64,000 bases of DNA, from the NCBI RefSeq assembly GCF_018977255.1, contig NW_024704742.1:12774001-12838000 (forward strand), written 5' to 3'. The translations under genes and the position numbers were made by a program. Origin of the DNA: Callorhinchus milii (taxonomy: Eukaryota). Every line of letters begins with the position of its first letter. The stretch's first letter is position 1. Under the pieces are notes generated by a model that saw only the letters and a program-made list of their open reading frames with translations, was not told the origin of the DNA and did not search any database. This document shows positions 331 through 57,900 of this stretch, in pieces.

Positions 331-550
331 CCAGGGAAGTCCATCATCTCCTTGCTTTTGGAGGAGCCAAAACTTATACATAAATAGTGGCCACTTGGGC
401 AAGTTACCAGAGAGGTTTCTGTGGACTATAGCGAATAGGAAGAAATATAGAAGTTAAACCCACTTCAGAAGAGAGGAGAATAACATAGGTCTGTTACGTT
501 GCTAAATTCTCAGGGGAGTAAATGAACTGTCTTGAACAGTTTGTACTTAC

Positions 551-653
551 AGATCCTTCAGAACAGCTGATGACTTGTTGGAAAGAATTGCTGTAATCAC
601 AGCAGAGTACCTCTTCTTTGTGAGACACTGATTTGCTGTCACGCAGCTCCTTT
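551..653 (-). pseudogene. WDR95-like remnant exon g (103 nt)
   Basis: ttttatatgcag|A AAG GAG...GGA TCT|gtaagt; KELRDSKSVSHKEEVLCCDYSNSFQQVISCSEGS (SH start of a WD blade). Confidence 0.8.
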
Positions 654-765
654 CTGCATATAAAAGAAAATATCTAGTAAGCGATGGTGTCATCAGTTAA
701 CATTACCCACCTCCTGACAAGTGCCACAGCGAGAGAAGAGTCCCACCCGCTGTCCTGGTCTAACT

Positions 766-1069
766 ATAATAATCCTTGCATTTGATGTAGCGCTTTTCAC
801 GTCTTCTAGACGTCCCAAAGCGCTTCACAGAATATACTGTAAAGTGAATTGACTGTATATTTGTGGGCGAACGCGGCAGCCAATTGCGCACAGCAGTATC
901 CCACAAAGTCGTTGATTGAAAATGACCAATTTATTATTGTTTTTGGTTTTTGAGGGATTATTATTAGGCGTGTGGAGTAAGGAAACTTGCCCAAGGTTTC
1001 GCCCTGCCTGGAATTGAACTCAGGTCTCTCGCTTGCAAGGCGAGTGCTCTAACCACTGAGCTACAAATC
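766..1069 (-). mobile_element. tRNA-derived SINE, full length
   Basis: Minus strand: GTAGCTCAGTGG A box, CTCGC-cttgcaa-GCGAG anticodon arm (TGC, Ala-like), GAGTTCAATTCC B box, tail aaatgcaaggattattat; many copies in the window. Confidence 0.85.
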
Positions 1070-1362
1070 ACTGGCGCAAATCAGTACTTTAAGTAATGAG
1101 CTGTAATAATAATTAGTTGCATTTGATCTCATTTGTAACATCTTAAAATGCTTCACACAATGAGTTACTTTGAATTCAGTGATTCTCGGTGTATGTCTCT
1201 CTCCTTCTCTGCCAATGCCTCTCTTAATAGTTACACATTTGATTATATTTGCTGTGCAATGTATCTCAGTTAAATCTAGTTATGTATTTATGTGTTTGAT
1301 TTTGTGACACTGTGAAAGATGTTGCTATCCGTGCTCTCCATTCGAGATATTTTCTTACTTAC

Positions 1363-1507
1363 CTGTCAGTGAGCTGTAGTAGAACCAGGGAATTTGTTGC
1401 AATGCACTCAGATCTTCAGAATGATAACAGGCAGACAGTTCTCCTCTGAGCTGAATAGTTTTAGGGTTTATGGTAGTGAGACATGTCTGATCTTCAATAT
1501 CCCATAC
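1363..1507 (-). pseudogene. WDR95-like remnant exon f (145 nt, frameshifted)
   Basis: atgttttag|GTA TGG GAT ATT...GAC AG|gtaagt; VWDIEDQTCL WD motif; 3n+2 nt are needed but the exon is 145 nt. Confidence 0.8.
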
Positions 1508-3695
1508 CTAAAACATATACATTAATGTGAGATAAAGTGAGAACATTGCTGAGAAATGATATCTGTGATGGGATAATGCATAATCATGAGTCAGCATATA
1601 TATATATATATAAAACGTGTGTGGATATACAATGTATGTGTGTATGCATATATGATACAGATATGACCAAATGTGTATCAGGAGAAATTCCAAGAGAAAT
1701 CCAAAACTCTGAATTTGGCTCCAATCTGAGGACAATCAAGGCATCTGAACACATGAATCACACTGTACTCTGCCCTGGATGCAGCTCTCAGCAGACTGAA
1801 CCATCTAGACAAAAATAACTTGTCACTCCAGCAGACGGATCACAATGACTTAATAATTCCGCCTTTAACTGCAAAAAATAATGCAAAAAGATAACACTGA
1901 TTGGGTGTTATAGGATTCATACACTTTGTATAGAAAATAAGCCCGCACCCCCCACCTGTAGTTTATACAGCAGGGAGTTCTCGCAGGGTCCTGGCTAATA
2001 TTTCTCCCTCATCCAGATTAAAAAAAGATTAAGTGGGCAATCATCTTATCGGTGTTGATGGGGCATTGCTGAATAACGCACTAGTATAGAAGTCTGCAGG
2101 CCGTATATTTTCCAGCAACAGGCTCCAGGAGCCAATCACCCCAATCCTCATCTGTCTTTGTTAGCTCCCCAGCCCCCAGAGGATCAAGTTCAAGATACTC
2201 GTTCCCACTGCTGGCAAATTAAAGTGACTGGTGGCAGTCTGAAGATCTAAACATGTACATAGCCTGCAGGTTGAAGTGCACCTCTCCCTGTGCTAAGCAT
2301 GGCCCACTTTGTCTGTGCTGACAGATACTCTTTCATGCCAAACATACTCTTTGCCAAGTTTTTCCTCTGTCTCATTATCTTCATAAGGATGGGCTTTGCT
2401 GGTAACAATGTGGTGCAGAGCACACAGTATTTAGTGTGTTGCTAGAGCATGAATAATGTATCCTGTTGCTATGAAAACAAACACTGTGTAAGGTGTGGCT
2501 AAAATAACACTTCCTTGCCTTCCACATCATCAGCAAAGAGACACTTAATGTTGCAGTTATCCAGCTGCCTATGGATTAGAAGACTCTTGTTCCTCTGCCT
2601 ATACAGTAAACAGATTCACTGTTCACAAATATATCCCAGACCATCACCTATTCAATGCTATTTTATAACCAACCAGAATCATGTATTCCTGTGAGTTTCC
2701 CTCAAATTGTAATCCCTCTTGCCCGGGAAGGTTATGTATGCTCACCCGTATCTCATCCAAATGACCTGTCTCATACTGTCCGTGTAATGCTGTAGTCAGG
2801 CTGGTTTCAGATACCCCAAGACAGTGGGACAAGGGGACATACGCCAGTGATGTGAAGAGAAAGTAAATATTTATTTACACTGATGGTAAATTTTAATTTT
2901 GAGGAAGGGAGATTGAGGCCAGGACACTGGACCAATTTAAGAAACAACGTGATGCTGTAATGGGAAGAGGATATGTTGGGTATTTAGAAAGAGGAGATCA
3001 AATAGGCTGAAGGGCCTTCTTCATGTGAACATCACTTGTGTATAATCGTGTGACATGTGAAGCTAGAAAGTATCAGCAGGCTATTTAACAAGGAGGGTAA
3101 ATCACTGGCAATTGTATTCTTCATGTCACATTCATAACTGTGCACTTTCCAGCGAGGTTCACTGAACAGTGATCAGGAATAGAAATCCTAGTTGATTTTT
3201 CCCTCTGTCAGAAACCCTGAGACCAATTGTAGAGCTCATATTGCTAAGATGAGATAACAGCATGACGTGGGCTTCCTTTTCCATCTGTATGCCTAGCTGA
3301 ATCTTTCACCTTCAAATCTCTCCAGTCTCGCCCCACACTATCTCTGTGCTTCCTCAAACCCTACTGAGCCTGCTTAGGACCCCGATTCTAACCCTACAAT
3401 CTGCTTTTGCAAAAGAGCTAATATACCCTAACTCCTGGGCAAAAAGTCACTATGTTAAAGTGTTTAAATACTGCTTTGGGCATCTTCGAAGAGCACAGAA
3501 AGATTGGGTCCATGTATGAAGGAAACCTGCTGAAGAATTTTGGGAGAATAAGCAAATCCTGATGCACTGCAATAACAGAAACTGTAAAAGTTGGTAAACT
3601 ATACACTGAGGTTCAACATGCAGTATTTTTTAATAGATTTCCATAGTAAAGTCTCATGTTAGATTCCCCATTGACCTCCATGGAAATTACACCCC

Positions 3696-3800
3696 AGACA
3701 AATATACAGTCAATTCACTTTACAGGTGTTCTGTGAAGCACTTTGGGATGTCCTCCCGACATGAAAAGCGCTATATCAAATGCAAGGATTATTATTATTA
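3696..3800 (+). mobile_element. SINE 3' fragment
   Basis: cagtcaattcactttacag...gcgctatatcaaatgcaaggattattatt. Confidence 0.75.
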
Positions 3801-5004
3801 ATGTCAGAGTGGTGTTCCAACAGGTCAATGTAACGCACTTCATGTTAGCAGACTGGATGATTCTGATTCTTTATTAAGAAATCCCATTAAGAAACACCAC
3901 AGCATTAAGATCTCACTGTCTCAGAACAACAACAAAATTACATTTACATAGCGCCTTTCATGTCGGGAGACATCCCAAGGTGCTGAACAATCAATGTTTT
4001 GGACCCGAGTTGGGGTCGAGATCGGGGAGGGTGAAGCAAGGAAACAGTTACCCCCCCACAGAAGAATTCAATTCCTGCCTGATCAATGAAACATATGCTA
4101 TATGTTAACTATTTATACTATAGTGCACAGGATTGAGCTGAAGAAGTAATGTCCAGAAGTTCTCAGTTTAAAGTATTGTGGACTAAATAGCTGTTTAATC
4201 CAGAAAGCTATACTGAAACGGAATGGGTGTCAGAGCTTCAGAGAGCCCAATGATGTGAGGAAGTAGGTGCCTTGGTGCATTTATCAGACTGTCAGAAGGT
4301 GCTTCCTGGTTTTGGTTAAAACTCTCAGAATATTCCAGAAAAAAATTAAAAATGCTTTAGCATGCTGCCCTCCTCTGGCAATTCTGCAGCAGCCAATAGC
4401 ATCTGGGTCCTACACAAAATGAAGCCTTCTTTTGTGCTGTAAATTTCTATTATTCTACGGTTCTAAGTACTTTTTGCGCAAAAGCGTTTAGCAATGATAT
4501 AAATCATGTCAAAACGGACCATTTCATCACCGAAAAGATGATACCTTGCTTTCATGTGTTACTATGATAGTAGGCTGTGTGCACTGCCACAGGAGGGCAC
4601 CAGGCTCAGCATCTCTGATACTGTCCAGATTATTTTAATAATCTCAGTCAAAAATAGGTGAACCTTCTGGCAACACTTTAGAAAATACAGCAATACCCAT
4701 TGCCTTACATCATCAGACTTTAGGCTCTGAAACATGGTTAGTCTACCTCTTCTCTCACCGAACAATCACAGCACACCCCCAACCCCCCATGTATGGCAAA
4801 AGCAGGAAGTAATTAAATGATTGGCAATCATAAATCCATAGAAATGTCAGCATAGAAGGTCATTCATAGCTGTGCTTCTGCTAGTTCTACACTGGATTTA
4901 TCAACTCTAAATAGTCCTATTTACCCACACTTTCCTTATACCTGTGAATATCGTAATTCTTTAACTGATAATCTAATTTCATGTTTAAGTTGTGTAAAAG
5001 CCGT

Positions 5005-5530
5005 TTAGAATCATAGAAATTACAGCACAGGAAAAGACCATTCATTCCATCGTATATGTGCTGGCTCTTTTAACAACAAACCTTTCAGTCCTTTTTTACC
5101 TACCTTTTCCTGAATACCTGCAAATGTATTCTTTTTTAGATATCTATCTGGTTCCCTTTTTAAAATCAATATGGATTCTGCCTCAGGGCCAAATGCTGGC
5201 AGGGCATTCAATATCCTCACTACTCTGTGTGTGAAAAAAATTCTCCTAGCCTCCACATTTGCTCATTTACTAACTATCTTAAGTTGATGCATAGAATCAC
5301 TGACTCACCAACCAGTGGAAATAATTTCTCTCTATTGACTACTAAAATCTCTGATAATTTTAAAGACCTCTGTCTAGTCACCCCTCAACCTTCTTTGTTC
5401 CAGCTGAAAAAGTCTCAGTGACTCCAGTCTGTGCTCATAGAGAAAACCACTCATCCCTAGTATCATCCTAGTACATCTTCTCTGCATCCTTCTATTGCCT
5501 TGATATTCTTCTTAATGTGGGGTGACACAC
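5005..5530 (-). mobile_element. CR1 LINE 3' fragment
   Basis: ORF 5020..5256 RRIFFTHRVVRILNALP; short repeated ttctatga-type tail. Confidence 0.75.
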
Positions 5531-5983
5531 TTTAGTTGTAGTAACAGGTTGTACATCCTAATAGCCCTTTGTGTAAAATCAATTCCTTCTTTCCTCTCCT
5601 TTATAGTATGAGCAATAATCTCTTGTTATGGCCATTCATAGAAATAAATATTTGCACTTTACCCTCCTGTGAGACATTGTGTGCTCAAATTGGCTGACAC
5701 TTAACTTTACAAAAATTCTGTGAAGTGCTATGAAACATTTCAACATGATAAGAAGCAATATCAAATGCAATTATTATTAAAATATTATTAAAATATCTTT
5801 CACAATGATCACTTCTATGAGATCCCCCCTTATTATCTATGCTCCACTGAACACAGCCCCAAGTTTTATTAAGCCATTCATCATAACTATTGTTTCATCC
5901 TAGTGAATATAATTGCACTCTCTTCATAGCTCCTGGGACACAAAAATACTCAGTGAGTCTGTAACTCATTGAATAAATCTTAC

Positions 5984-6053
5984 CAATGACCAATGCCGTG
6001 GAATGGTCATTGGAACTTGAGATAACTGTTCTCATAGGATCAACGTATTTAAT
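5984..6053 (-). pseudogene. WDR95-like remnant exon e (70 nt)
   Basis: gtcttgcag|ATT AAA TAC...GTC ATT G|gtaaga; IKYVDPMRTVISSSNDHSTALVI(G). Confidence 0.8.
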
Positions 6054-6154
6054 CTGCAAGACATCATATAGATAAACTATAGTAAATAAGTGACAGATTT
6101 TTCAATATTAAAGGTATTACAAAGTCTCTCCAAGGTACCCAAATATATTTCTAC

Positions 6155-6271
6155 CTCTGTCAACCAGTCATTGTGAACTTCCAACGGATGGAGGAGAGGT
6201 TACCAGTGTTGATGATTTTCTCAATGCTAATGGTTGGAATTCCATCCAATACTGGACACTTTGTCCAGCTC
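6155..6271 (-). pseudogene. WDR95-like remnant exon d (117 nt, frameshifted)
   Basis: ttatctgcag|G AGC TGG ACA...ACA GAG|gtagaa; the flanking phases require 3n+1 nt but the exon is 117 nt; the IRW.VHNDW motif is split across two frames. Confidence 0.8.
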
Positions 6272-6859
6272 CTGCAGATAAATGATGTCAAACGAATGAT
6301 TTGTTGAAGTAGCATTACAGAAACATTAGTTACACTTCTGAGAAATATAGGTAGAAATCAGGTTGAACATTAGTGGAGATGTTATGATGAAGAGAACTCT
6401 TTGGCCTATTTGATCTCATTTAATACAGGGACATTTTGTTAATTGGATACTCAGTTTAACAGGGAAAATGATTCAATAAACCAAACTATTCATATAACTG
6501 GACTAAACATCAAAATAGCCTCACATCCTGGAGCTCGCGCTGCACCTGAAACGCTCTCCTCCACCCATCAGACTCACTCCATCAGACTCATCCTCACTCG
6601 CACGTGGCCAACTGACCAATCGTCAATGACCTCCATGGGGAGTGAAGCGAGGGGAGGTGGAAGAAGAGTGAGGCAAAGGGAGGGGGAAGAAGAGTGAGGG
6701 GAGGGGGAAAAAGGACACCGATGATGCCGAGGACACTGTACATGGCACGAAGCCAGGAAGGTTATTAGAGAAATGAAGCGGGATCAATGGGTTGCATCAC
6801 TACAAAAGAGGGCACGACTAAACAAGAACAATCCTAAATCTTTCTTCTGTCGTCAGTTA

Positions 6860-7700
6860 TGGTCAGAGGGGATCCCTCTGGACTCGTGCCTGTGTTGGAC
6901 AAGACACATCAATGTATCATTGAGTAATTAGGGGAGCATTATGCAAAGTTGGCATCTGACCCAACAGACCACTGTAGAGATCCAGTTGTGCAGGATTGCT
7001 GTTCTCTGTTTGCAGACAACATTGTGCTGCTGGTGGACTCACCTAGGGAACCTCTGAGCTGCACTCGCCATATTGAACACTGCCCAACCACTGGGACAAG
7101 GTGATGGATGCCCCCAAGTGCAGAATCAGGGTTCTGCACAGCTTCAAGTAAAGCCATTGAGAGTATTGATTGGAAGATACAAGTACCAATCCCAATTATT
7201 GATTCTTATTGGTACCCATTGTGATGGACACCAACTTCTGCCTGGATACTGTCCTGACGGACCACGCTCATCTCTCTTCAAGGACATCAAGGTCCCAATG
7301 TAGGTCAAGATCTGTGACCTAACACTGTAAGTCCTGTGTGCAAACAATCCTCCTTCACAGATCTGAGCTCCTGGGAATGCAACAGAGGATGCAACATCCA
7401 TCCCAGGTTCCTCCGGCCTATTTTCAAAGTCCAGGATCAAGCAGTGAGGTACATTTGTGGCAAACACGAGAAGCGGATGCAGGGAGGGAGGGCTGTGGCC
7501 TTCACTCATCTGTCGCTAAGCACCCTGGATGTGGAGATGGCTTCATGGTGGGCACATCTATTTGCCAAGGCCCCTCACATGAGGACCTGGGTTAAGCAGT
7601 GGTGCTGAATAAGCCTGGTATGCGGCATTGGATTTGGACCTCGAGAACATCGAGATGGCTGCCCTATCACAAGCTGTCCTGTAAATGTCCTCCCACCATG
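6860..7700 (+). mobile_element. Degenerate non-LTR retrotransposon RT fragment, probably RTE clade
   Basis: SLFADNIVLL (RT FADD-like motif) near 7005; CKSCVQTILLHRSE and RFLRPIF resemble RTE C-terminal motifs; many disruptions. Confidence 0.5.
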
Positions 7701-8194
7701 CTGAAGGCAGATGTCTGTCAGATTGCTGATGAGGAAATTTGGAGGCTTGGAGCGACAGTGAATATGAAGTGAATGTGTAACAGTGAATGGACTAGGAGTC
7801 TCAAACAATCTAGCTCATGAAAGGGTCCTTACAACAATTAAGAGAAAAATGGTAAGATTTGACACCATTTTCACTATAAGATAAATGACAAAATAATTTC
7901 TATTGTCAGTGAATTAACATAAACATATAGTATGTTAAAGACAAAAGGGTTGGTATCTTTCCTGGTCACTTTGCATTATCTCAAGAGCTTTCTAAATAGC
8001 TCAGTGAGTAAATGTTCTGAGCCTCAGAGTGTAGAAGTATGAGCTATACAGATTAGGAAAGCCTGGAAGATCTCAAGTTCCACCCTTGTTCTGCACTGAA
8101 CAAGCTGAGCTCAGTGGTGAGCACGAGGAACAGAAAAACAAATTACTATCTGCTTACCTCTAGTCATAGCTGTAATACATGATAATGATCAGTG

Positions 8195-9810
8195 CTCACC
8201 AAAAATAGAGGGGAGCCAAGAAGCTAATGTTAGTGAGCAATTTAGGGAAATTAACATCAGTAAAGAATTAATACTAGGGAAACTGTTGGGATTGAAAAAT
8301 GACAAATCCCCTGGACCTGATGGCCTGCATCCTAGGATTTTAAAAGAGGTGGGGGCTGAGATAGTGGATGCCTTGTTTTTGATGTTCTCTGGATTCTGGA
8401 ACGATTCCCATTGATTGGAAGATCGCAAACGTAACTCCAAGATTGTAGAAGTGTGGGAGAGAGAAGATGGGGAACTATAGACCAGACAGTCTGACATCCG
8501 TGGTAGGGAGAATTCTAGAATCCTTAATTAGGGACGTTGTAGCGGGGTACTTAGAAGACCATAACATGATTAGGCAGAGAAGTCATGCTTAACAAATCTT
8601 TTAGAGTTCTTTGAGGATGTAACTATCAGGTTAGATGGGGGCGGGGGGGGGGACCAGTAGATGTAGTGTATTTAGATTTTCAGAAGGCATTCAACAAGGT
8701 GCCACATAAAAGGCTGCTACACAAGATTAGGGCCCATGGTATTAAAGGCAATATATTAACATGGATCGAAGAGTGACTAATGAGAAGAAAACAGAGCGTA
8801 GGGATAAACGGGTCCTTCTCAGATTGGCAAGATGTGACTAGTGGAGTGCCTCAAGGATCAGTGCTTGGGCCTCAACTATTTACAATCTATATCAATAATC
8901 TAGACGAGGCCATTGAACTTAAAATATCTAAATTCGCAGATGATACTAAGCTAGGTGGGAGAGTAAGCTCTGAGGATGACACAAAAAGATTGCAAAGGGA
9001 TAGATAGCTAGGTGTGTGGGCAAGAAGGTGGCAGATGGAATATAATGTGGGGAAGTGTGAAGTTATTCACCTAGGTAGTAAAAACAGAAAAGCAGATTAT
9101 TTTCTAGAGGGGGAGAGATTAGATAGTGTTAGTGTTCAGAGGGATTTGGGTGTCCTTGTATACCAGTCACAAAAAGTTACTATGCAGGTACAGCAAGCAA
9201 CTAGGAAGGCTAATGGCATGTTGGCGTTTATTGCAAAAGGGTTAGAATACAAGAGTAGGGAAGTCTTGGTGCAACTGTATAGGGCCTTGGTGAGACTGCA
9301 CCTAGAATATTGTGTGCAGTTTTGGTCTCTTTATTTAAGAAAGAGCATACTCGCCTTAGAAGGGTGCAGTGTAGATTCACTAGGTTGGTTCCTGGGATGA
9401 GGGGGTTGACCTATGAGGATAGGTTGAGTAAACTAGGCCGATATTTTCTAGAATATAGAAGATTAGGGGTGATCTTATAGAAACATAAGATTCTTATGGG
9501 GCTTGATAGAGTGGACAGTGTGAGGCTGTTTCCCCTGGTAAGAGAATCTATAACTAGGGGGTCACAGTCTTAAGATTAAGAGGCAGCCTTTCCGAAAAGA
9601 ATTGAGGAAACACTTCTTCACTCAGAGGGTAGTAAATTTATGGAATTCCCTACCCCAGAAGGCTGTAGATGCTCAGTCCTTGAACATATTCAAGACTGAG
9701 ATTGATGGATTTCTAAAAGATAGAGGGATTAAGGGATATGGGGATAAGGCAGGCAGAAGGTTAGAAGGGCAGTCTCGAGGGCTGAATGGCCTAACTCCTA
9801 TATTCCTATG
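8195..9810 (+). mobile_element. 5'-truncated CR1 LINE (RT and 3' end), disrupted
   Basis: ORFs 8780..9007 ([19 protein letters not shown]), 9014..9400 and 9602..9811 (FFTQRVVNLWNSLP). Confidence 0.92.
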
Positions 9811-9841
9811 AAAGTAAGCAATAACCCAGTTTGTTCCATAC

Positions 9842-9888
9842 CTGAGGGTTTCTCCCACTAACGATATCAGGAAGATATTGACACACCC
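9842..9888 (-). pseudogene. WDR95-like remnant exon c (47 nt)
   Basis: tttttcacag|GGG TGT GTC...ACC CTC AG|gtatgg; GCVNIFLISLVGETL(R). Confidence 0.8.
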
Positions 9889-9967
9889 CTGTGAAAAACC
9901 GAAAATTCAATTGATATCTTTTACCTTTGGATGCATTTTCCTTTTCTTGCACATTAGTTCACTAAAT

Positions 9968-10279
9968 TAATAATAATAATCCTTGCATTTGACATAGAGC
10001 TTTTCACATCTTCTAAATGTCTCAAGGAGCTTCACAGAATAGATCGTAAAGTGAATTGACTATATATTTGTAGGCGAAATGCAGCAGCCAATTGTGCACA
10101 GCAGTGTCCACAAACAGTCATGGATTGAAATGACCAATTTGTTATTGTTTTTTTTTCTTGAGGGATTATTATCAGGCGTGTGGAATAAGGCAACCTGCCC
10201 AAGGTTTCACCCTGATGGGAATCAAACCCAGGTCTCTCGCTTGCAAAGCGAGTGCTCTAACCACTGAGCTACAGGATTC
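9968..10279 (-). mobile_element. tRNA-derived SINE, full length
   Basis: Colinear with the copy at 766-1069. Confidence 0.85.
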
Positions 10280-10299
10280 TACATTAGTTATTAGTTCAT

Positions 10300-11803
10300 G
10301 CTGTCATCATTCCTATCCTTAAAAAAACCTTCCCTGGACTCTTCTCTACTCCCTAACTACGGCCCCATCTCTAACCGCCCCTTCCTCTCCAAGATCCTGG
10401 AACGAGTTGTTGCTTTTCAGCTTCGCTCCTTCCTCTCCTGCCATTCCCTTCTCGAAGCCCCCCCACACCCCCAATCGGGCTTCTGTGCTGCCCACAGCAC
10501 AGAAACCGCCCTGGTCAAAGTGACAAAATGACATTCTGTCCATCTGCGTACAGGGCTCCCTCTGCCTCCTTGATCTCCCTTCTGCTTTCGACACCGTCGA
10601 CCACTCTATCCTCATCCACCGCCTCTCCTTTCACCTCAACCTCCACGGCGCTGTCCTTGATTGGTTCAGATCGTACCTCTCACACTACCTGCACTTCATC
10701 TCCTCAAACGGCTTCTCCTGTAGCCCCCGGACCATCTTGTGTGGCGTTCCTCAGGGCTATGTCCTTGGTCCTCAACATTTATATGCTCCCTCTTGGTGAC
10801 ATCATCCGCAGACATAGGATCAACTTCCACATGTATGTGGATGACACCCAACTCCCTCTCTGCCTCCACCCTTGACTCCAAGACCACTGCTGTGCTGACA
10901 GAATGTCTGTCAGGCATCAAGTCCTGGATGAGAGCTAACTTTCTTCAGTTGAACGTCAACAAGACCGAGGCTCTCCTGTTTAGCTCCCGTCAGCGCCTCC
11001 TCACCTCAGGCGCTGACAGCATCACCATCCATGGTTGCACACTGCACCTTGCTAAGCCAGTCCGGAACCTTGGGGTTTTGTTCGACCCTCAACCATCCTT
11101 TCTACCCCAAATCTGCACCATGACCTGCTCTGCCTTCCCCCACCTCCGCAACATCACCCGGCTCCAACACTGTCTCACACCACAGGCCACCAAAACCCAT
11201 AAGGAAATACACCTTCATTACATCGAGGCTCGACTATGCAAACTCACTGCTTGTCGCCCTCCCCAACTCCTCCCTCCATAGGCTGCAGATTATCCAGAAC
11301 TCTGCAGCCCGTGTCCTCTCCCGCACTAGGCTCCGCGACCCTATCACCCCTATCCTTGCCCAACTCCACTGGCTTCCCATCACACAGAGGATACAGTTCA
11401 AGATCCTGGTCCTCATCTTCAAAGTCCTTCATAGTCTTGCCCTACCTCTCCGACCTCCTAACCCTCTACCATCCTGTTTGCTTCCTCCATTCAACAGGCT
11501 CCAGTCTGCTTCACGTCCCCCGCCTTGCTCGCCCCACTATTGGTGGGTGGGTCTTCTGCCACTCTGCACCCACCCTCTGGAATTCCATCCCACAGTCCCT
11601 CCATCTCGCCCCCTCCCTCGCCACCTTCAAGACCCACCTCAAGACCCTCCTCTTCAACCGTGCTTTCGATCTCCCTGCTTCCCCCCTGCCCTCCCCCCAC
11701 CCCGACCCTCAGCTCGGGTCCGAAACTCTGTCTGTCCAATGCCTTGGGACGTCCTCCCAACATGAAAGGCGCTATACAAATGTAATTTTGCTTTTGTTGT
11801 TGT
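10300..11803 (+). mobile_element. 5'-truncated L2 LINE (RT and 3' tail), disrupted
   Basis: [46 protein letters not shown]; tail ggcgctatacaaatgtaattttgc(ttg)n. Confidence 0.92.
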
Positions 11804-12671
11804 AAAGTCAATATTCCACAATTGTGGGACTCAAAGACAGTTCAGGAGGTGACAGTAGCTAGCGTACTGAGAATTGCATTGAGGGAGTTGTACAAAAGGT
11901 TGACAGAGGAGGACTTTGCTATATGGTTTTTAGTTGAGGAGGACAGTAAGATGACCTCTCAGGTCTTTGAATGTGGGACAGACCCAAAAAAGAAGCTCAG
12001 CACATTGAACCAATGAAAAAGGAATGTTTTCAGTCTCAAAAGTCTAGCTTCAAAAGTTCCAGTTTCAAAAGTTTACATCAGCTTTATTTAAGAAAACAAA
12101 TCACAGCTTGATCTACTGAGAAATTGGTGTGAAAGAGGTATTCATAACCATAACCACTTCCACAAGGCTGCATCTTTCATCAGCTCCTGCAAAAAGTAAT
12201 TCATCCAAATAAAATATTTTTCATAAACAGTGTTAAACACACGTGGATATCAAATGAAAATTTGATGTGGCTGGGTTATAACTAAATAGCTTTGTGACAC
12301 TCTTTGTCCTGGGGTGACAGGCTGACATGTTTACAAAGACCATTTGAGCCAGGTATTGGAGTATCTATCACTGGTGCTCTGCTGCTCTAACTCAATGTGA
12401 AACAGAACAGCACCTCAAGAGAAGAAAATTGGAGAAGAAAGGGGAAATTGTAAAAAAAGGCATTTAAAGAAAAAATAGTTGCACATTGCATACACATTCT
12501 GAACATGACCAGTTAAACGACTATAATTACAAATTACCGATCATAACTGCATAGTTAGAGTTTTACAGTAAATCCTGTGAAGTGCTTTGAGACGTGAAAG
12601 GTGCTGTATTACATGCAAAGATTATTTTTACTACCAAAAATACAGTAAACCAAATATTGAGTTTATCATAT

Positions 12672-12717
12672 CTGTTCATCACCAAACAGGATTACACACT
12701 CATCATTTTCTGTGGAA
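12672..12717 (-). pseudogene. WDR95-like remnant exon b (46 nt) with non-canonical AT donor
   Basis: ttctctcctttag|T TCC ACA...GAT GAA CAG|atatga; phase fits exons a and c; STENDECVILFGDEQ. Confidence 0.75.
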
Positions 12718-12753
12718 CTAAAGGAGAGAAGGATTAAAGAAGGACTGAGTCAA

Positions 12754-13070
12754 TCAACAACAACAAGATTACATTTGTATAGCGCCTCTCATGTCGCCTC
12801 TCATGTCGGGAGGACGTCCCAAGGTGTGTACAGCATTTCAGACCCGAGCTGGGGTCAGTGGGTGAGAAGGGAGGGAATGGGGGTGACCGATGGCATGGTC
12901 GAAGAGGAGGGTCTTGAGGTGGGACTTGAAGGAGGCTAAAGAGGGGGCGAAGCGGAGTGATTGGGGGATGGAATTCCAGAGGTAGGGGGCAGATTGGCTG
13001 AAGGCTCTCCCACCAATGGGGGGGGGGCGGGTGGGTTGGGGGACGTGGAGCAGACCGGAGCTGATGTACA
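12754..13070 (-). mobile_element. L2 LINE 3' end
   Basis: (caa)n tail; GGRAFSQSAPYLWNSIP...FKSHLKTLLF. Confidence 0.85.
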
Positions 13071-13764
13071 GCACTGTTCCATCAAGTTAAGAAGAGGTTT
13101 TTGACAAATGTTTCAAATGAGCTTGGTAGCGGTGGGAGAAGAGATCCAGCCGTGAAACACTGACAAAGGCACAAACAATGATTATGAGAATTTAGTGTGA
13201 AAGAGGCATTCAAAACCGTAACATTTTTGTTCCTGTCCTATTTTTATGAGATTTGTTGACACTTACCCTTGCTTAAATACATTTTAATAGTTCCTGTTAT
13301 AGATTGCATGAAAAGGTATTACTGCCTAAATAATACAAGATTGTAACAAGATGAATAAATGGTTGTTTAAACCTCCAGTGTGAATGAATCCCATATCTCA
13401 CGTGGTTGTAATTGGAAGCCAACAGGGTCTATCACCTGGTCAGTGGAACTGGAGGTCTTTTCATCAAGTGTTTGTATTATAAAATAATCACCATCAACAC
13501 CTATGATGAAATGATCCCTAGTATTAACAACCATGGCAATGGCAGGTTTCATCTAGTGATGGCCAGAGGCTTTCCCAAAGGAGAAAGAGTTCAGACATCG
13601 AGTGCACATCACAAGACCACAAGATTGGTTTGTTTGAAGAAGGCCCATCTGAACTCATCCTTCCTGAAAATCCACCTTACCATTCTCCCATCACAGATTC
13701 AAACTGCTTTCTAAATGAGTCCAGAGGTCCTGGCTCAAGGCTCAATCCCAGTTGCTGGCCATGT

Positions 13765-14210
13765 GTATCAGGTTGGCTCAAGTGATAGTGCTCTTGCCTC
13801 TGAGTCAGGAGATTGAGGGTTCAAGCCCCAGGGCGGATCTTGATACCCATATGGTCTAAGCTGACACTCTAATGCAATGCTGGGGGGTGTGCTGCACAGT
13901 CAGAGTTGCCGTCCTTCGGATGAAACGTTAAAGCAATCCCCCATCTGCCTGTTTAGGTGGATGTTAAAGGTTCCATGGCACAACTAAAAAAGATAAGACT
14001 GTTCCTCCCGGTGTCCTGGCTAACAATCCCCCAAGATAGAACTGGTCATTCACTTCAAGGCTGTTTGTGAAACATTGCAGTTTGCAATTTGTTGTCTCAT
14101 TCATCCACAAAATACAGCCACTTCACTTTATGATATATCCTGTGAAGAGCTTTGGAACGTCTTCCTGATGTGAAAGGCACTTTACCAAATCTAAAGATTA
14201 TTATTATTAT
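13765..14210 (+). mobile_element. DeuSINE-type element (tRNA head, Deu domain, L2-like tail)
   Basis: tggctcaagtgatag A box, gggttcaagccc B box, gccgtccttcggatgaaacgttaaa...ggtggatgttaaaggttccatggca...ccggtgtcctggctaac Deu core, (tta)n tail. Confidence 0.7.
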
Positions 14211-14529
14211 ATTGACCTTTTCCAGTGTTAATTATACTGCTCTCCTCTATACCGACTCTAGGGCCTCAACAGCCCTGATGTTGCGGTGACCAGGACTGTA
14301 TACAGTACTCTGGAATTGGGCTGACCATAGTACTATTCAAACTGAGCATGGCTTCAATCTACGACAGACCTTGGAGGTGCAGGCAAGACCCCAAGTGAAA
14401 GACCTAACCAGCAAAAAAGTTGCAGCTGAACAACTGAACGGTTACCATCATCTTTTTTAATGAGTGGAAATGCCTTTGAACCTTTTCATTTCTTCATTGA
14501 TATGACTTATTAAACAGCAAGAACGTTAC

Positions 14530-14622
14530 CTGTTGTCCAGGTGAAGTGGCATGGATTCAAGGCCAATGATTTGACAGGAGGGTTCAAAGTTGGAGAGTTC
14601 ATATAAATGCATTTCTCGATCA
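14530..14622 (-). pseudogene. WDR95-like remnant exon a (93 nt)
   Basis: ttttctgcctag|T GAT CGA GAA...GAC AAC AG|gtaacg; DREMHLYELSNFEPSCQIIGLESMPLHLDN, open frame. Confidence 0.8.
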
Positions 14623-16142
14623 CTAGGCAGAAAATATTAATAATAATAGTGATATTATTCATTTTGGATATAAAGTAAATTGCTGATAACGGGACCCTGG
14701 CTTGTCACTACCACTTAAGTAGCTATGCTGTCAATATCCCGGCTGCTTCCTATGCAAAATGTTAATAACGGACTCAATTTTACTTGTCACTCTGCTTAAA
14801 ATATAACTTGTCACATCCTAGAAATTCTTGTAAGAACTTACTTCAGATAACTGGTCCGATAATACGACATTCTGTATCGCAGAGATTCCTTGCCCTATCC
14901 CTTGACTGGTGTGGACACTTGGTGCAGCCCTCCAATAGACCAGAGGCCTCTGTGATGCATCTGAGAATGTGTGCCCAATCTCTGCCGAGTGCCCTAACTA
15001 GTCACACTGCTCCCTTGCGGCCCGGGGGACATAACAAGCCACTCCAAATAATTTGTCGCTGAGCGCTTTTCCCTTGAAGTGAAGAGTTATCAGGAGTTTA
15101 CTATATATAAATAGTATTTTCCTTGAAGGATATTGCTAATATTGCTAAGTGTGGTCTAGTGAGTGTTTCAGGGGAAATTAAACAGGCATAGTGGCATCCC
15201 TAAAATATACAAACTTTGGTGGTGGATCGGTCAAGAATGCAGAATGCTCCATAAATTAAACAATATATATAATGCAATATAATAAAAATATATATTGTGC
15301 GTTTAGGGAAAACACAGAGACACACAGACACTCACAAACACATTTGGTTTGTAATGGTTACATGTTTACATAAATGTCTATACATGTAGATGCTTGCACG
15401 TACTTTGGACAATGGAATTATTTGTTCAATCGGTATTAAAGCCACATTTAAATGTTTTTAAAATTGTGAGCTATGGCAATTTATTGATGTTATTTATTTT
15501 ATGCTTTATAAAACACATCAAGAATTATGTACATTTTTACCTTATTCTTATTGAATAACTTTATACTTTTTTTTGATAATTTAAGCAATTTTTTTGAATT
15601 TTAAAAATATTTTTGCATATGCATTTTGTGAATGAATGTTTTTTTATATATTAATATGCTTAAGTTCAGCAGAAGTTAATTTCTTCCAAAAAATATACAT
15701 TATGTACAAAAGTTCTATCTCATTGGTTTTTTTTGGTGGGGGAAGTGAAATTCATCAAGGCATGTGCTGGCAATGCTGGGGAATAGAACTGGTTTCCATT
15801 TCACATCCCAGTTCCTGACAGGCAAATCCACATCAGGTGCTGCATGTGACATGGCCAGAATACTCAGCCCAAACACAAAGGTCTTCAAAAGGGGAAAAAA
15901 ACATTTTGGAGGTTTAAATTTAAAATATAAAAAGCACCTGCCCAAAACCAATTTGTACTGGCACTGTGACAAAAACACACCCAATTTGGTGTGAACCCAT
16001 CCAAACTTGGGACGCTACCATACTTGAGGGGCACTACATAAATGCACGTTGTTGTTGTTGAAAGCAATCCACCAATCAACTAACAACCAGGTTCCTTGTT
16101 TGTGAGTGCCCTGACCTGGGTAGGACAAATTTGAAAGTCTGC

Positions 16143-16490
16143 AACAAAAAGAAAATTACATTTGTATAGAGCCTTTCACATCGGGAGGACCTTCCAAGGC
16201 GCTGGACAGTCAAGAGTTTCGGACCTGAGCTTGGGATCGGGAAGGTCGATGGCAGGGGAGAAAGCAGGGTGATCGACGGCACGGTTGAAGAGGAAGGTCT
16301 TGAGATGGGCTTGAAGCCAGCGAGGGAGGGGGCGAGGTGGAGGGACTGCAGAATGGAGTTCCAGAGGGTGGGGCAGAATGGCAGAAGGCCCACCCACCGA
16401 TGAAGCCGGCCGGAATCCGCTGAGCGGAGGGAGAGAATAGGATTGTTAAGGGGTTAGGAGGTCGCAGAGGTAGAGGGCTATGGGGAGAGA
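16143..16490 (-). mobile_element. L2 LINE 3' end
   Basis: Same tail as 12754-13070 ([16 protein letters not shown]). Confidence 0.8.
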
Positions 16491-16919
16491 GTGCGGGAGT
16501 GCGATTAATTTGGACAGCTCTTTCAAAGAACGCGGGTGCGGCCACGGGCACGGCCATGGGCGCGGTGGGTCAAATGGCCTCCTTCTGTGCTGTATAATTC
16601 TATGAATTTATGAACCCTGACCAACACTGAGCAGTCAGTGGTGCCCGGAAGTGGCCACCCGTGTGTCCACAATAAAAACTCGCCTTTAAACATCTTCATC
16701 TGGGATAGGATGCGTCTGTGCGCTTTTTAAACAAAAACAAAGCTTCTAACAATGACACCTTTTTTTAAGGGAAGAATTGACGTTCTGACACTTTTTTTTA
16801 CCCCAAGTACTGTGACGACGTACAGCGATGTGCTCTCCTCTCTTCCCCACGCCCTGCGTGCCGGACGCAATGACGTCGGGGCAGCCTCGCTGTGGGTGTA
16901 ACGGGCGGCTTTTTCAAAC

Positions 16920-17009
16920 ATGGCAACGTTCGGCAGAGGCGTCCGCGACTCAAACGGGCGACTGTGGCGGCGACTGCAGCGCGAGGAGGAGGAGGAGGAG
17001 CAGTGGTGA
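16920..17009 (+). other. Candidate upstream ORF (29 aa) in the PLK4 5' region
   Basis: aacATGG strong Kozak context; MATFGRGVRDSNGRLWRRLQREEEEEEQW*; out of frame with the main ORF; stop 41 nt before the main ATG. The transcription start is not known. Confidence 0.55.
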
Positions 17010-17050
17010 GTCTGCGCCGCCCCGACCCGACCCAGGGCCTCGGCCCTGAC

Positions 17051-17092
17051 ATGGCGGCGGCCGAAGGCGTCAGCATCGGCGACAAGATCAAG
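17051..17092 (+). CDS. PLK4: PLK4 exon 1 coding part
   Basis: gacATGG Kozak context in CpG island; [14 protein letters not shown]|gtaaac. Confidence 0.9.
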
Positions 17093-54900: not shown

Positions 54901-57900
54901 GGTTCACTAAACATAACTGAAACAACAGTTTTTTATAAATATTAATAGCAGTATATTTGCCACCCATCTTGATCTTTGTAGCCTTGGTAACAATTGAGAA
55001 AATGCCCAATTAAAGAGAAAAATATAGGAGGCATAGTTTCTATTTAAGAATCTTCCTAGTTATTATATATTAGATTAAATTATTACAGTTAGACAATACG
55101 GTGTATAGGGTTACAAATAAACCTTATACAGAAGAATACCCAATACCTAACTTTTGAAGTGACCATTTGTGGATATAAAATAATTAGATAAACAGTCAAT
55201 CCACTTTATAACAATAATAATAATCCTTGCATTTGATATAGTATATTGCAGTATATTCTATGAAACGCTTTGAGACGTCTCAATGACGTGATAAGGTGCT
55301 ATTTCAAATGCAAGGATTATTATTATTATTAGATATCTGTTTGTGGCACCTTGCTGACACAAGTTACTGTCATGCTTGCCTGCAGAGAGTACACGTGATA
55401 TTAATTACCTATGATGCTTTTGAGCTGTTTTGACAGGATATAAAAATGCAAGTTCTTTTTCTCTTTCAACATGCACATCATGAGCTTGAGTGTCTCTCCC
55501 AGTAAGCCATGTGTCATACTGAATGGATATAATAACTTGCATTAATGTAGTGCAATTTGTATGAAAGAAAATCTCAAAGCACTTTAACACAGAGTGGTGA
55601 ACAGCGAGGTGACTGAAGTTATAGATTAATGTTGAGTAACAGCTTTATACTACTCCAAATAGGAGGTCACTTTGAAGCTAATGTGATCCATAAGCGGACT
55701 TTCTTGAATAGAACTGAATAGAGTGAGATAGAGTGGTTAGTCCTTTGTTCATTCCACATATGCAGATTTCACTGTATTACTGGACCCAGGTGGAAGATTT
55801 GCGTGTGGTACTTTTCTGAAATACTTAAGATTTATTAATAAACAAGGCAATTTTACAATTTACATTTCTATAGCACCTTTCACGTTGAGAGGACGTCTCA
55901 AAGTGCTTCACGCTGTTGGCTGATCACCCAAGCGATGAAGGGGATGAAGGATGAGGGATGAAGGGGAAAGTTGACCAAAAATGCAATTAAAGAGGTAATC
56001 TTGGAAGTCGGAAGGGAGGAGGGGAGTTGGAGGGACTCCACGAGGAAGTTCCAGAAAGCAGGGCTGAATGGCTGAAAACTTGCCTGCCGATAGTGGGGCA
56101 GAGAGAATGGGGAACTTTACACATTTAGAAAGAAACTCTCAAATTTCAGGAATCCCTTGGATGCTATGCTGGAATCCCGGGATGTCACTGAATGGGAGAA
56201 GGTGGTTGCATATTCTCAGGTACTGTGCATTCCCAAGAGGAACAAGCTGCTACGGAGGGGATCAGCAAGGAGGGGAGACACGCGATATAATCAGAAAAGG
56301 GGCCAGAGTACGGGTGAGAAGGGGAGTGAAGCTGGTAATGTTAGTTTGTAAACAAGAACTTTAATCAGGATAATAATAATAATCCTTGCATTTGATATAG
56401 TCCCTTATCACGTCTTTGAGACATCTCAAAACGCTTCACAGAATATACTGTAAAGTGAATTGACTGTATATTTTGTGGGAGAAATATGGCAGCCAATAAT
56501 AAGATAAACTACAAAGTGTAGTTGTGACAATAGGTTTATCATGAGTGCTCAACAACTTGGAAGACATACTTTTACTTGAGTTTTGTTTAACACTTAGCCT
56601 GAGATTCTGGACTGATACCTTGTGATGCCATGTTATAACTGAGTTTCTCTATATTGTGCACTCAGTTCCATTTAAAATGTTTATTTGATTAAGTGAATTG
56701 ACTGTATATTTTAACTGGAGGAGGACGAATACTCTTGACTTATGAACTTTACAAGAAAGTGTTTGCTAACTGCTGTAATGATCAAATACATGTTTGACAT
56801 CCTTACCTGGTCCTAGTATAAAACCCAACGCCTGGCAGGCGCTCATATTTGCCATCGCACTGGTCCTTTCCTGAAGTGAGGTCGCACCTGAAACATATGA
56901 TCGGACCACAGCCACATTTCCTGAAACAAAACACAAAGAAAATGGGAAGCAGCACTTTACAGAACGTTTTTATCCCCCCCACCACCACCCCTCGGATCCC
57001 AGCTCAGGTGCCCAGCCAGCAGTGTCAAGCACTTTTAGACCTCTTCCAGACATAAAACGTGCTTTAAAAATATGAATTTTATTGTATTTTTAAGCAGTAA
57101 AATATTGTTTATGATACAAATGAAACTGAAATACTCAGGGAGGGCCAAGATAAAAACTGACTCATTTTGTAGCTCTTTCGTTCCATGCACATCAATATTT
57201 TTAACATTCACATTAGATTCATTAAATTTCACTTTTATTCTTAAAGAGAGGTCTCCTTGGAGCTAAACTGGCTCCAAGGTGACATGGTTGGCAATGCAAT
57301 GTCAGAATTGAGCCAACCCTCTGTGGTGGTCTCCAGTTCGGTTCCTGAGCTAAGCGGGTCCTCAGTACTCCAAGGCACTGCTGATGACAGCACAGCCCAG
57401 CCTGGCTCACCGGCAGGACCTGGAAGGGCAGACCAGTCACTGGGGGCTGGGACTCTTCTACTCTTGAATCTCCTCCATTCTGCACAAAGGCAATTCTGTT
57501 ATAGCATTTGGTTAAACAACAACAAAATGACATTTGTATAGAGCAGTTCACATCAGGAGGACGTCCCAAGACGCTGCGGTCTTACCTGCTCCAAATCCAA
57601 CAAACGCTCGAGCCATCAGCATGAAGTACTTTTTGTGAGATGGAATAGCGCTTACATAGGCATACAGCAAGTTTGCCATTACGTTGATCAAAATTGAGAT
57701 AATAAGCGGTTCTCTTCTTTGTCTGTAATTGGACCATAGACCAAACAATGGTGAAGCAACCATTTGCCCCAGGCTGTACGCAGCAATAACCCATCCCAGA
57801 AAGCTGGAATCTGCAGTTGTATCTACCTGTACAAAAGGAACATGTGTCAGATTACAGGATTTTCTGTAGGAAGCTCAAAACATGTGCTACTGTATCAAAT

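What the first reader, a model, noticed from the sequence alone, without database searches (positions are those of the whole stretch)
551..17092. The WD40 remnant may be a lost whole-genome-duplication ohnologue of WDR95
Recalled knowledge, to be verified: mammalian WDR95/WDR95P lies tail-to-tail beside HSPH1, and the gene upstream of human PLK4 is the HSPH1 paralogue HSPA4L on the same strand as PLK4. Seen: the remnant is on the - strand just upstream of PLK4, so it would be tail-to-tail with an HSPA4L left of the window. Inference: an ancestral HSP110-WDR95 pair was duplicated in early vertebrates, and the HSPA4L-side copy survived in cartilaginous fishes while being absent at this locus in mammals.
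Basis: inference. Interest (0 to 1): 0.75.

Follow-up and report, generated by a model that had tools for sequence, protein, structure and literature searches.

The report
Decayed WDR95 sister gene beside PLK4
A broken, no longer coding copy of a cilia-protein gene lies between an HSPA4L-type gene and PLK4 in this cartilaginous-fish genome; it is the old duplicate partner of WDR95, which sits intact beside the HSPH1-type gene on another chromosome.

Summary
Seven minus-strand exons (window 548-14621), collinear with shark "CFAP337-like" WD40 proteins, lie upstream of the PLK4 start codon (17051). About 13 more run 25 kb left of the window. The gene is dead: two in-frame stops, four frame changes, and three missing stretches of the coding sequence.

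- An HSP110-type gene lies on the plus strand 50-71 kb to the left, convergent with the remnant.
- The same genome has an intact paralogue on contig C4, convergent with a second HSP110-type gene. It sits near a Fringe-like gene and BRCA2, which matches human 13q12-13, the home of WDR95P-HSPH1.
- In trees the remnant joins a separate gnathostome clade "A". Clade A and the WDR95 clade "B" form a vertebrate-only group, with tunicate and amphioxus outside. AU tests reject placing the remnant in clade B (p=2.6e-8) or beside the C4 gene (p=9e-53).

One correction: the copy did not survive here. Intact clade-A genes exist in sharks and rays, and also in sturgeon, bowfin, lungfish, amphibians, turtles and lizards. 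Their genomic positions could not be checked. This is a sound but modest result.

The parts
14535..14621 (-). Most 5' recognisable exon of the WD40 pseudogene (reads DREMHLYELSNFEPSCQIIGLESMPLHLD).
   Evidence: tblastn E 9e-9 to P0004. Clade-A profile positions 103-131, E 4.4e-14. AG acceptor and GT donor nearby.
12672..12731 (-). Exon (reads TENDECVILFGDEQ). No GT follows the last conserved codon.
   Evidence: Profile positions 129-148, E 4.9e-5. tblastn is weak, E 1.1-1.4. Flank reads ATATGA.
9832..9906 (-). Exon (reads GCVNIFLISLVGETLR).
   Evidence: Profile positions 143-167, E 2.8e-6. tblastn E 3e-4 to 4e-4.
6150..6282 (-). Exon broken by a one-base deletion between ...IRWK and VHNDWLTE. 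The open frame then ends at TGA.
   Evidence: Profile positions 161-196 (E 2.8e-10) and 195-218 lie in two different frames. The three-frame reading shows TGGAAGTTCAC. In the C4 paralogue this is one exon.
5973..6062 (-). Exon (reads IKYVDPMRTVISSSNDHSTALVIG).
   Evidence: Profile positions 201-230, E 1.3e-8. tblastn. Splice signals kept.
1362..1507 (-). Exon with a change of frame between ...CYHSEDLSAL and CIATNSLVLLQL.
   Evidence: Profile positions 343-378 (E 2.2e-13) and 377-392 lie in different frames. Three-frame reading. Acceptor ttttag and donor gtaagt are kept.
548..655 (-). Exon (reads KELRDSKSVSHKEEVLCCDYSNSFQQVISCSEGS), the last one inside the window.
   Evidence: Profile positions 394-428, E 6.2e-11. 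tblastn E 1.4e-5. Donor gtaagt.
1508..5972 (-). Interval where the exons for profile positions 231-342 should lie; none is detectable. In the C4 paralogue that stretch is coded by two exons (P0017 residues 373-458 and 459-494).
   Evidence: No profile or tblastn match. The C4 paralogue has these exons at C4:70491094-70491351 and 70492404-70492511.
14622..17050 (-). Interval where the 5' exons (profile positions 1-102) and the promoter should lie. No exon is detectable. It ends in the CpG-rich region shared with PLK4.
   Evidence: No match. For 16601-17400: GC 0.545, CpG observed/expected 0.84.
17051..17092 (+). PLK4 coding exon 1 ([14 protein letters not shown]), followed by a GT donor.
   Evidence: Further PLK4 exons follow: a kinase-domain ORF at 24825-25943 (Pkinase E 1e-43) and the start of Plk4_PB1 in 31396-31923 (E 4e-4, below the cut-off).
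57548..57874 (-). MFSD8-like exon (major facilitator), downstream neighbour of PLK4 on the opposite strand.
   Evidence: MFS_1 E 1.8e-12. The order HSPA4L-PLK4-MFSD8 is reported for human, anole and chicken in PMC3155547 (passages).

Best explanation
The minus-strand WD40 exons are a unitary pseudogene of an unnamed vertebrate gene, here called clade A. Databases label clade-A proteins CFAP337-like, WDR49-like or WDR64-like. They run about 870 residues, have WD40 repeats, and show no EF-hand hit.

Shown:
- The pseudogene spans about 40 kb (window 14621 down to -25231). It runs head-to-head towards PLK4 and is convergent with an HSP110-type gene to the left.
- It cannot make the protein.
- It is not a copy of the genome's WDR95-type gene on contig C4.
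- Clades A and B are both gnathostome-wide and together vertebrate-specific.
- In this one genome, each of the two WD genes is convergent with a different HSP110 paralogue.

Inferred:
- An ancestral convergent HSP110 / CFAP337-like gene pair was duplicated as a block at the base of vertebrates, most simply by whole-genome duplication.
- The HSPH1-side copy became WDR95.
- The HSPA4L-side copy became clade A. It was later lost in several lineages and decayed in place in the chimaera lineage.
- The ancestral protein was an axonemal WD40 protein of the FAP337/CFAP337 kind. This rests on family knowledge and was not tested here.
For: Anatomy
- 22 of 25 profile rows are collinear on one strand; tblastn agrees.

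Lesions
- A one-base deletion at about window 6178.
- Frame changes at about 1410, -8735 and -23750.
- TGA in the exon at -10280..-10381, and TAG in the last exon.
- No match for profile positions 1-102, 231-342 and 429-457.
- A contig of run X1 reproduces L011:1024-1300, which spans one frame change, with 0 differences and 0 gaps (table 8).

Neighbours
- 6 of 78 PF00012 matches lie on the plus strand at C1:12702850-12723676.
- One of those exons matches human HSP105 at E 5e-43, against about 1e-13 for HSP70.
- PLK4 and an MFS exon lie to the right.

Second pair
- P0017 maps exon by exon to C4:70482118-70511925 (+); 17 of 21 HSPs are at 87-100% identity.
- HSP110-like exons lie at C4:70554088-70557345 (-).
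- Fringe-like exons lie at C4:70626415-70630615.
- All 3 of 3 BRCA2-helical matches lie at C4:71.05 Mb.
- Human WDR95P and HSPH1 are neighbours according to a table in PMC7890067.

Phylogeny
- SH-aLRT values: remnant plus elasmobranch clade A 98; clade A 100; clade B 100; vertebrate clade 99. Tunicate, amphioxus and other invertebrates fall outside (45 rows, LG+C20+F+G4).
- The same groups appear.
- AU tests reject remnant-with-B (p 2.6e-8) and remnant-with-C4-gene (p 8.8e-53).

Identity and copy number
- Identity to clade-A sharks is 58-59%, against 42% to the genome's own C4 protein.
- No other clade-A-like match in the genome.

Large-scale paralogy
- The three HSP110-type loci (C1, C4, C13) lie on the three contigs that hold 3 of the 6 Sprouty-domain matches.
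Against: - The genomic position of intact clade-A genes in sharks, rays, fishes and tetrapods could not be examined. That the HSPA4L-PLK4 site is ancestral therefore rests on one genome.
- Which HSP110 paralogue is which was not settled by sequence. The three copies score alike against human HSPH1 (147.9, 138.4 and 139.5 bits). The assignment rests on neighbouring genes.
- No mouse Wdr95 or human WDR49, WDR64 or EFCAB8 sequence was in the trees. 'Clade B = WDR95' therefore rests on synteny and on database labels.
- The AU tests used LG+G4 on 23 rows; the mixture-model version did not finish.
- Clade A evolves faster than clade B, which can distort its placement.
- The lamprey protein groups with B only at SH-aLRT 92.
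- No third copy was found beside the HSPA4-type gene on C13, but only 29 kb exist before the contig end.
- The 3' half of the HSP110-type gene on C1 was not mapped, so another gene between the two cannot be excluded.
Confidence: 0.75

Rival explanations
1. The pair arose by a smaller segmental duplication of an HSP110 + WD gene block in an early vertebrate, and not by whole-genome duplication.
For: The trees date the A/B split only to the interval between the tunicate/amphioxus divergence and the gnathostome crown. No HSP110 tree was made.
Against: The two pairs lie on different large contigs, together with other genes of the human 4q28 and 13q12-13 blocks. The three HSP110-type loci share their contigs with three Sprouty-domain genes. 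From general knowledge, HSPA4L, HSPH1 and HSPA4 lie on human 4q, 13q and 5q, which are treated as paralogous regions (recalled).
Confidence: 0.12
2. The adjacency to the HSPA4L-type gene is secondary. A clade-A gene moved into the HSPA4L-PLK4 interval in the chimaera lineage, so the likeness to the WDR95-HSPH1 arrangement is coincidence.
For: The position of clade-A genes in any other species was not seen here.
Against: Both WD genes have the same relative arrangement: each is convergent with, and on present evidence the nearest detected neighbour of, a paralogous HSP110-type gene in one genome. The remnant has introns and about 20 exons over 40 kb, so it is not a retrocopy.
Confidence: 0.07
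3. The gene is still functional, and the apparent lesions are assembly errors, skipped exons or lineage-specific exons.
For: Most splice signals are intact, and conserved exons keep 58-59% identity to shark proteins. Low-depth contigs of runs guessed to be RNA touch some exons.
Against: At least six independent disabling changes, plus three undetectable stretches that are strongly conserved in clades A and B. A contig from another run reproduces one frame change exactly.
Confidence: 0.04

Closest known systems
WDR95 (mouse Wdr95, human pseudogene WDR95P); here clade B, including the genome's own C4 gene P0017
   Same: Same protein family. Same convergent pairing with an HSP110 paralogue. Sister clade within vertebrates. 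In people WDR95 is itself a pseudogene beside HSPH1 (PMC7890067 passages). Mouse Wdr95 is testis-enriched and dispensable for fertility (PMC13253961 passages).
   Different: A separate clade; AU rejects membership. It sits beside the HSPA4L-type gene and PLK4, not beside HSPH1. Intact clade-A relatives are about 200 residues shorter and list no EF-hand family, whereas most clade-B rows list PF13499. Identity to the genome's own clade-B protein is 42%.
FAP337 / CFAP337 (human WDR49, Tetrahymena CFAP337A/B, Drosophila WDY)
   Same: Homologous WD40 proteins. The family name is what databases give clade-A proteins. Reported roles: a subcomplex with FAP57 that stabilises inner dynein arms (PMC6761771 passages), and contact with CCDC96 and the stem of dynein d (bioRxiv 10.1101/2023.05.31.543107 passages).
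   Different: No function can be claimed for a dead copy. Whether clade-A proteins are axonemal was not tested. Where human WDR49 falls relative to clades A and B was not determined here.
Degenerate Ant4 (SLC25A31) fragment in birds, in the same INTU-HSPA4L-PLK4-MFSD8 block
   Same: A gene that decayed in place within a conserved syntenic block, recognised by fragments with a stop and a frameshift (PMC3155547 passages).
   Different: A different gene, a different lineage, and the other side of HSPA4L.

Membership tests
Clade A (unnamed 'CFAP337-like / WDR64-like' gene of gnathostomes) | Groups with clade-A proteins in a tree that also holds clade B and invertebrate orthologues | tested here: met
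   SH-aLRT 98 with elasmobranch clade A and 100 for clade A. The same result. Identity is 58-59% to clade-A sharks against 42-45% to clade B.
Clade A (unnamed 'CFAP337-like / WDR64-like' gene of gnathostomes) | Collinear exon order along the whole protein | tested here: met
   22 of 25 profile rows are collinear, covering profile positions 103-877 with gaps; searches agree.
Clade A (unnamed 'CFAP337-like / WDR64-like' gene of gnathostomes) | Lies between HSPA4L and PLK4 in other species as well | not testable with these tools
   No shark, fish or tetrapod genome is held. Only contig lengths are given for those proteins.
WDR95 orthologue group (clade B) | Nests within the clade that holds the gene next to HSPH1 | tested here: not met
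   AU test p 2.6e-8 against remnant plus clade B, and p 8.8e-53 against remnant plus the genome's own C4 gene.
WDR95 orthologue group (clade B) | Lies beside the HSPH1-type gene in the 13q12-13-like block | tested here: not met
   The remnant is on C1 beside PLK4. The 13q-like block (HSP110-like gene, Fringe-like gene, BRCA2) is on C4.
Ohnologue pair from vertebrate genome duplication | Duplication dated after the split from tunicates and amphioxus and before the gnathostome crown | tested here: met
   Vertebrate clade 99; clades A and B each hold cartilaginous and bony vertebrates. The lamprey placement is weak (92).
Ohnologue pair from vertebrate genome duplication | The two copies lie in paralogous chromosome blocks with other duplicated neighbours | tested here: inconclusive
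   Each copy is convergent with an HSP110 paralogue. C1, C4 and C13 each also carry a Sprouty-domain gene. No chromosome-scale analysis and no HSP110 tree were made.
Pseudogene | Disabling changes in otherwise conserved coding exons | tested here: met
   Two in-frame stops, four frame changes and three undetectable stretches. One frame change is reproduced by a contig of another run.
CFAP337 / FAP337 family | WD40 beta-propeller repeats (EF-hand at the N-terminus in many members) | tested here: inconclusive
   The intact relative P0004 gives WD40 at E 8e-40. One remnant ORF gives a weak propeller hit (E 8e-6, below the cut-off) and another gives none. The N-terminal part is missing in the remnant. 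Clade-A rows list no EF-hand family.

The most novel reading that the evidence does not exclude
A convergent HSP110 / CFAP337-like gene pair is a microsynteny block that predates the vertebrate genome duplications. Its HSPA4L-side WD gene is an unnamed, EF-hand-less ohnologue of WDR95. That gene is still intact in sharks, rays, sturgeon, bowfin, lungfish, amphibians, turtles and lizards. It was lost independently in mammals, birds, teleosts and, as seen here in mid-decay, chimaeras. A bolder version is that the pairing is kept because the two genes share regulation in the male germ line.
Probability: 0.55. Interest if true: 0.4.

Novelty: new member of a known kind. Interest (0 to 1): 0.3.

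Why it matters
It gives a poorly labelled vertebrate gene an evolutionary identity. Databases call it WDR64-like, WDR49-like or CFAP337-like; here it emerges as the sister of WDR95, on the HSPA4L side of a duplicated gene pair. It adds a clean example of block duplication followed by lineage-specific loss, caught here as a still-readable pseudogene in a slowly evolving genome. It also warns annotators that the HSPA4L-PLK4 interval holds a gene in many non-mammals. It does not change any general picture: lost ohnologues and unitary pseudogenes are common.

Tried and rejected
- Translating whole frames for a Pfam scan failed because of stop codons. ORF scans, tblastn and a home-made profile were used in its place.
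Smaller stretches were fetched.
- Naming the three HSP110 paralogues by likeness to the solved human HSPH1 domain was inconclusive: 147.9, 138.4 and 139.5 bits.
- The AU test under the mixture model did not finish in three runs. A 23-row LG+G4 test replaced it.
- Expression: no RNA holder is listed. Contigs of four runs guessed to be RNA, laid on L011:1-10000, were dominated by repeats. None of the 15 joints shown, of 685, links two remnant exons. Expression stays open.
- Third copy: profiles of clades A and B found nothing better than E 1.1 in C13:1-34100, beside the HSPA4-type gene. The contig ends there, so this is weak.
- Earlier notes of this scan held nothing relevant.
- A second cluster look-up, meant to see whether rodent clade-B proteins carry the name Wdr95, could not be made.
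- A recent duplicate of the C4 gene was considered and rejected. A retrocopy was rejected because introns are present. Chance ORFs were rejected because of collinearity.


Full report
**Where the window lies.** The window is G000:C1:12774001-12838000 of a 991.5-Mb genome. A protein that a public source names for Callorhinchus milii maps at about 100% identity to contig C4 of this genome. The genome is therefore that of a chimaera or a very close relative.

On the plus strand the window holds PLK4:
- The start codon is at 17051, and coding exon 1 ends at 17092, followed by a GT donor.
- A kinase-domain ORF lies at 24825-25943 (Pkinase E 1e-43).
- The first 27 positions of Plk4_PB1 lie in 31396-31923 (E 4e-4, below the cut-off).

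A major-facilitator exon lies on the minus strand at 57548-57874. The order HSPA4L-PLK4-MFSD8 is reported for human, anole and chicken in PMC3155547 (passages seen).

**The observation.** A stop-to-stop ORF scan of the minus strand showed WD-repeat-like pieces. One piece from the left flank (L011:1120-1449) found two shark proteins:
- P0001: 681 aa, "CFAP337-like", Pristiophorus.
- P0002: 819 aa, Scyliorhinus torazame.

I ran tblastn with these, with the 890-aa Stegostoma protein P0004 and with others. I also scanned with a profile built from 30 clade-A proteins. Together they give a collinear series of exons on the minus strand. Of the 25 profile rows with E<5, 22 are in protein order.

Seven exons lie in the window: 14535-14621, 12672-12731, 9832-9906, 6150-6282, 5973-6062, 1362-1507 and 548-655. 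About thirteen more lie to the left, down to window -25231, where the frame ends at a TAA matching the end of the shark proteins. Two of the thirteen are weak and seen by tblastn only, at -4220..-4300 and -23691..-23787. The gene therefore spans about 40 kb (C1:12748769-12788621). The finding's left limit, 551, is merely an exon end.

**It is a pseudogene.** Three-frame readings show these lesions:
- A one-base deletion inside the exon at 6150-6282. It reads ...IRWK, then VHNDWLTE in another frame. The C4 paralogue has this as one exon.
- A change of frame inside the exon at 1362-1507.
- A change of frame in the exon at -8697..-8856.
- A change of frame at about -23750.
- A TGA in the exon at -10280..-10381.
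- A TAG in the last exon.

The profile finds nothing for positions 1-102, 231-342 and 429-457. These include WD repeats that are well conserved in both clades. One exon (12672-12731) is not followed by GT. Most other splice signals are intact.

A contig of another run reproduces L011:1024-1300, which spans one frame change, without any difference (table 8). A whole-genome search with P0002 found no second copy of this type. The locus is therefore a unitary pseudogene.

**Left neighbour.** Six of the 78 HSP70-family matches in the genome lie on the plus strand at C1:12702850-12723676, which is window -71150 to -50324. Their translation begins [34 protein letters not shown]. One exon matches the solved human HSP105 domain at E 5e-43 and yeast Sse1 at about 4e-21, against about 1e-13 for ordinary HSP70s.

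It is thus an HSP110-type gene, convergent with the pseudogene. Given PLK4 and MFSD8 to the right, it is the HSPA4L orthologue by position. Its 3' half was not mapped.

**A second pair in the same genome.** P0002 also hit C4:70483184-70509978 on the plus strand. P0017 (1050 aa) maps there exon by exon, residues 126-950 within the 30 kb fetched; 17 of 21 HSPs are at 87-100% identity. So that gene is intact and annotated. Nearby on C4:
- Four HSP70-family matches lie on the minus strand at C4:70554088-70557345, about 42 kb further on. They have HSP110-type sequence. This is again a convergent pair.
- Fringe-like exons lie at C4:70626415-70630615.
- All three BRCA2-helical matches of the genome lie at C4:71054506-71056114.

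A table in PMC7890067 (passage seen) lists human 13q12.3-13.1 markers as "WDR95P, HSPH1" and "B3GALTL, RXFP2". That BRCA2 lies in the same region is recalled.

The C4 pair is therefore the WDR95-HSPH1 counterpart. A third HSP110-type gene lies at C13:29585-33889. No WD exon was found in the 29 kb between it and the contig end. Telling the three HSP110 copies apart by likeness to human HSPH1 failed: 147.9, 138.4 and 139.5 bits.

**Phylogeny.** The search with P0002 gave 365 relatives, of which the best 120 were listed. A FastTree run used 107 of the 121 proteins held at that point, plus the remnant. Dropped were P0003, which is unrelated, eight extra isoforms and five unnamed proteins. Two vertebrate clades appeared:
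- Clade A, 34 rows: the remnant, sharks and rays, sturgeon, bowfin, lungfish, amphibians, turtles and squamates. None of its rows is a mammal, bird, crocodilian, teleost, gar or coelacanth.
- Clade B, 52 rows: P0017, shark "CFAP337" proteins, ray-finned fishes, lungfish, coelacanth and tetrapods.

A search with a marsupial clade-B protein added monotreme and eutherian members. It also returned an alligator protein labelled "TEX26 isoform B". TEX26 is, from memory, the neighbour of WDR95P.

I then added 98 representatives from a full HMMER search and named ten of them. More distant groups, including molluscan, cnidarian, choanoflagellate and chytrid proteins, fall outside a group made of clade A, clade B, lamprey and the invertebrate orthologues.

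An IQ-TREE run with a site-mixture model on 45 rows gave these SH-aLRT values:

| Group | SH-aLRT |
|---|---|
| Remnant + elasmobranch clade A | 98 |
| Clade A | 100 |
| Clade B | 100 |
| Lamprey + clade B | 92 |
| All vertebrates | 99 |

Tunicate, amphioxus and other invertebrates fall outside.

On 23 rows and 593 columns (LG+G4), AU tests reject the remnant with clade B (p 2.6e-8) and the remnant with the genome's own C4 gene (p 8.8e-53). Identity over shared columns is 58-59% to clade-A sharks, 49-52% to bony-vertebrate clade A, and 42% to P0017.

**Reading.** Both refutation conditions fail: an HSP110-type gene is to the left, and the remnant is not inside the WDR95 clade. Two paralogous WD genes, each convergent with a paralogous HSP110 gene, diverged between the tunicate/amphioxus split and the gnathostome crown. 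This is what duplication of an ancestral pair predicts.

Whole-genome duplication is the simplest cause. The pairs lie on different large contigs within blocks that match human 4q28 and 13q12-13. The three contigs with HSP110-type genes also hold three of the six Sprouty-domain matches. That step is inference.

In this cartilaginous fish the copy is dead. Intact orthologues are widespread outside mammals. Their position in those genomes could not be checked here.

**Function.** Function can only be borrowed from the family. FAP337 forms a subcomplex with FAP57 that stabilises inner dynein arms (PMC6761771, passages). CFAP337 has two WD40 propellers and contacts CCDC96 and dynein d (bioRxiv 10.1101/2023.05.31.543107, passages). 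Mouse Wdr95 is testis-enriched, has no human orthologue, and is dispensable for fertility (PMC13253961, passages). Clade-A rows list no EF-hand family, whereas most clade-B rows list PF13499.

**In print.** Searches for "WDR95" (23 papers, 20 listed), "WDR95" with "HSPH1" (1 paper) and "CFAP337" (5 papers) returned nothing on an HSPA4L-side paralogue, judging by titles, abstracts and the passages read. Supplements were not consulted.

**Verdict.** It is a new member of a known kind: an ohnologue that decayed in place. Interest is modest.

Noticed in passing
window 21359-22633: A run of about 1.3 kb of imperfect CA/TG-rich simple sequence downstream of PLK4 coding exon 1. It gives 300-420-codon open frames of His-Thr-Pro on one strand and Cys-Val-Gly on the other. 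GC skew reaches 0.47 in 22001-24000.
   Followed up: no
window 8121-9400 (+) and 28882-30903 (+): Two copies of a retrotransposon with reverse-transcriptase-like ORFs that share strings such as [19 protein letters not shown]. One lies in an intron of the pseudogene and one downstream among the PLK4 exons. This was read from ORF translations only.
   Followed up: no
window 11124-11805 (+), 12737-13086 (-), 16079-16453 (-), 20012-20446 (+), 35161-35646 (+), 52543-53232 (+), 60234-60839 (-): Many copies of one dispersed repeat whose translation contains ...HSAP.LWNS.P.SL.L.PSL..FK..LKT.LF.... It fills much of the non-exonic space. This was read from ORF translations only.
   Followed up: no
L011:6351-6460 (window about -3540 to -3650): A 197-letter contig of run X1 lies on the stretch for only 110 letters and stops within two bases of the 5' edge of the RLITGG... 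exon (table 8, record 8). This could be a splice to an upstream exon or something else. The remaining letters could not be seen.
   Followed up: no
G000:C11:18340736-18340915 (-): A single exon-sized match to P0002 residues 362-421 (45% identity, E 9e-7) on another contig. It is possibly a more distant family member of the WDR49, WDR64 or EFCAB8 kind.
   Followed up: no
G000:C1:847523, C4:39439096, C13:17294447: Each of the three contigs that carry an HSP110-type gene also carries a Sprouty-domain gene. This fits the recalled human SPRY1 (4q), SPRY2 (13q) and SPRY4 (5q) paralogy. Which copy is which was not checked.
   Followed up: partly
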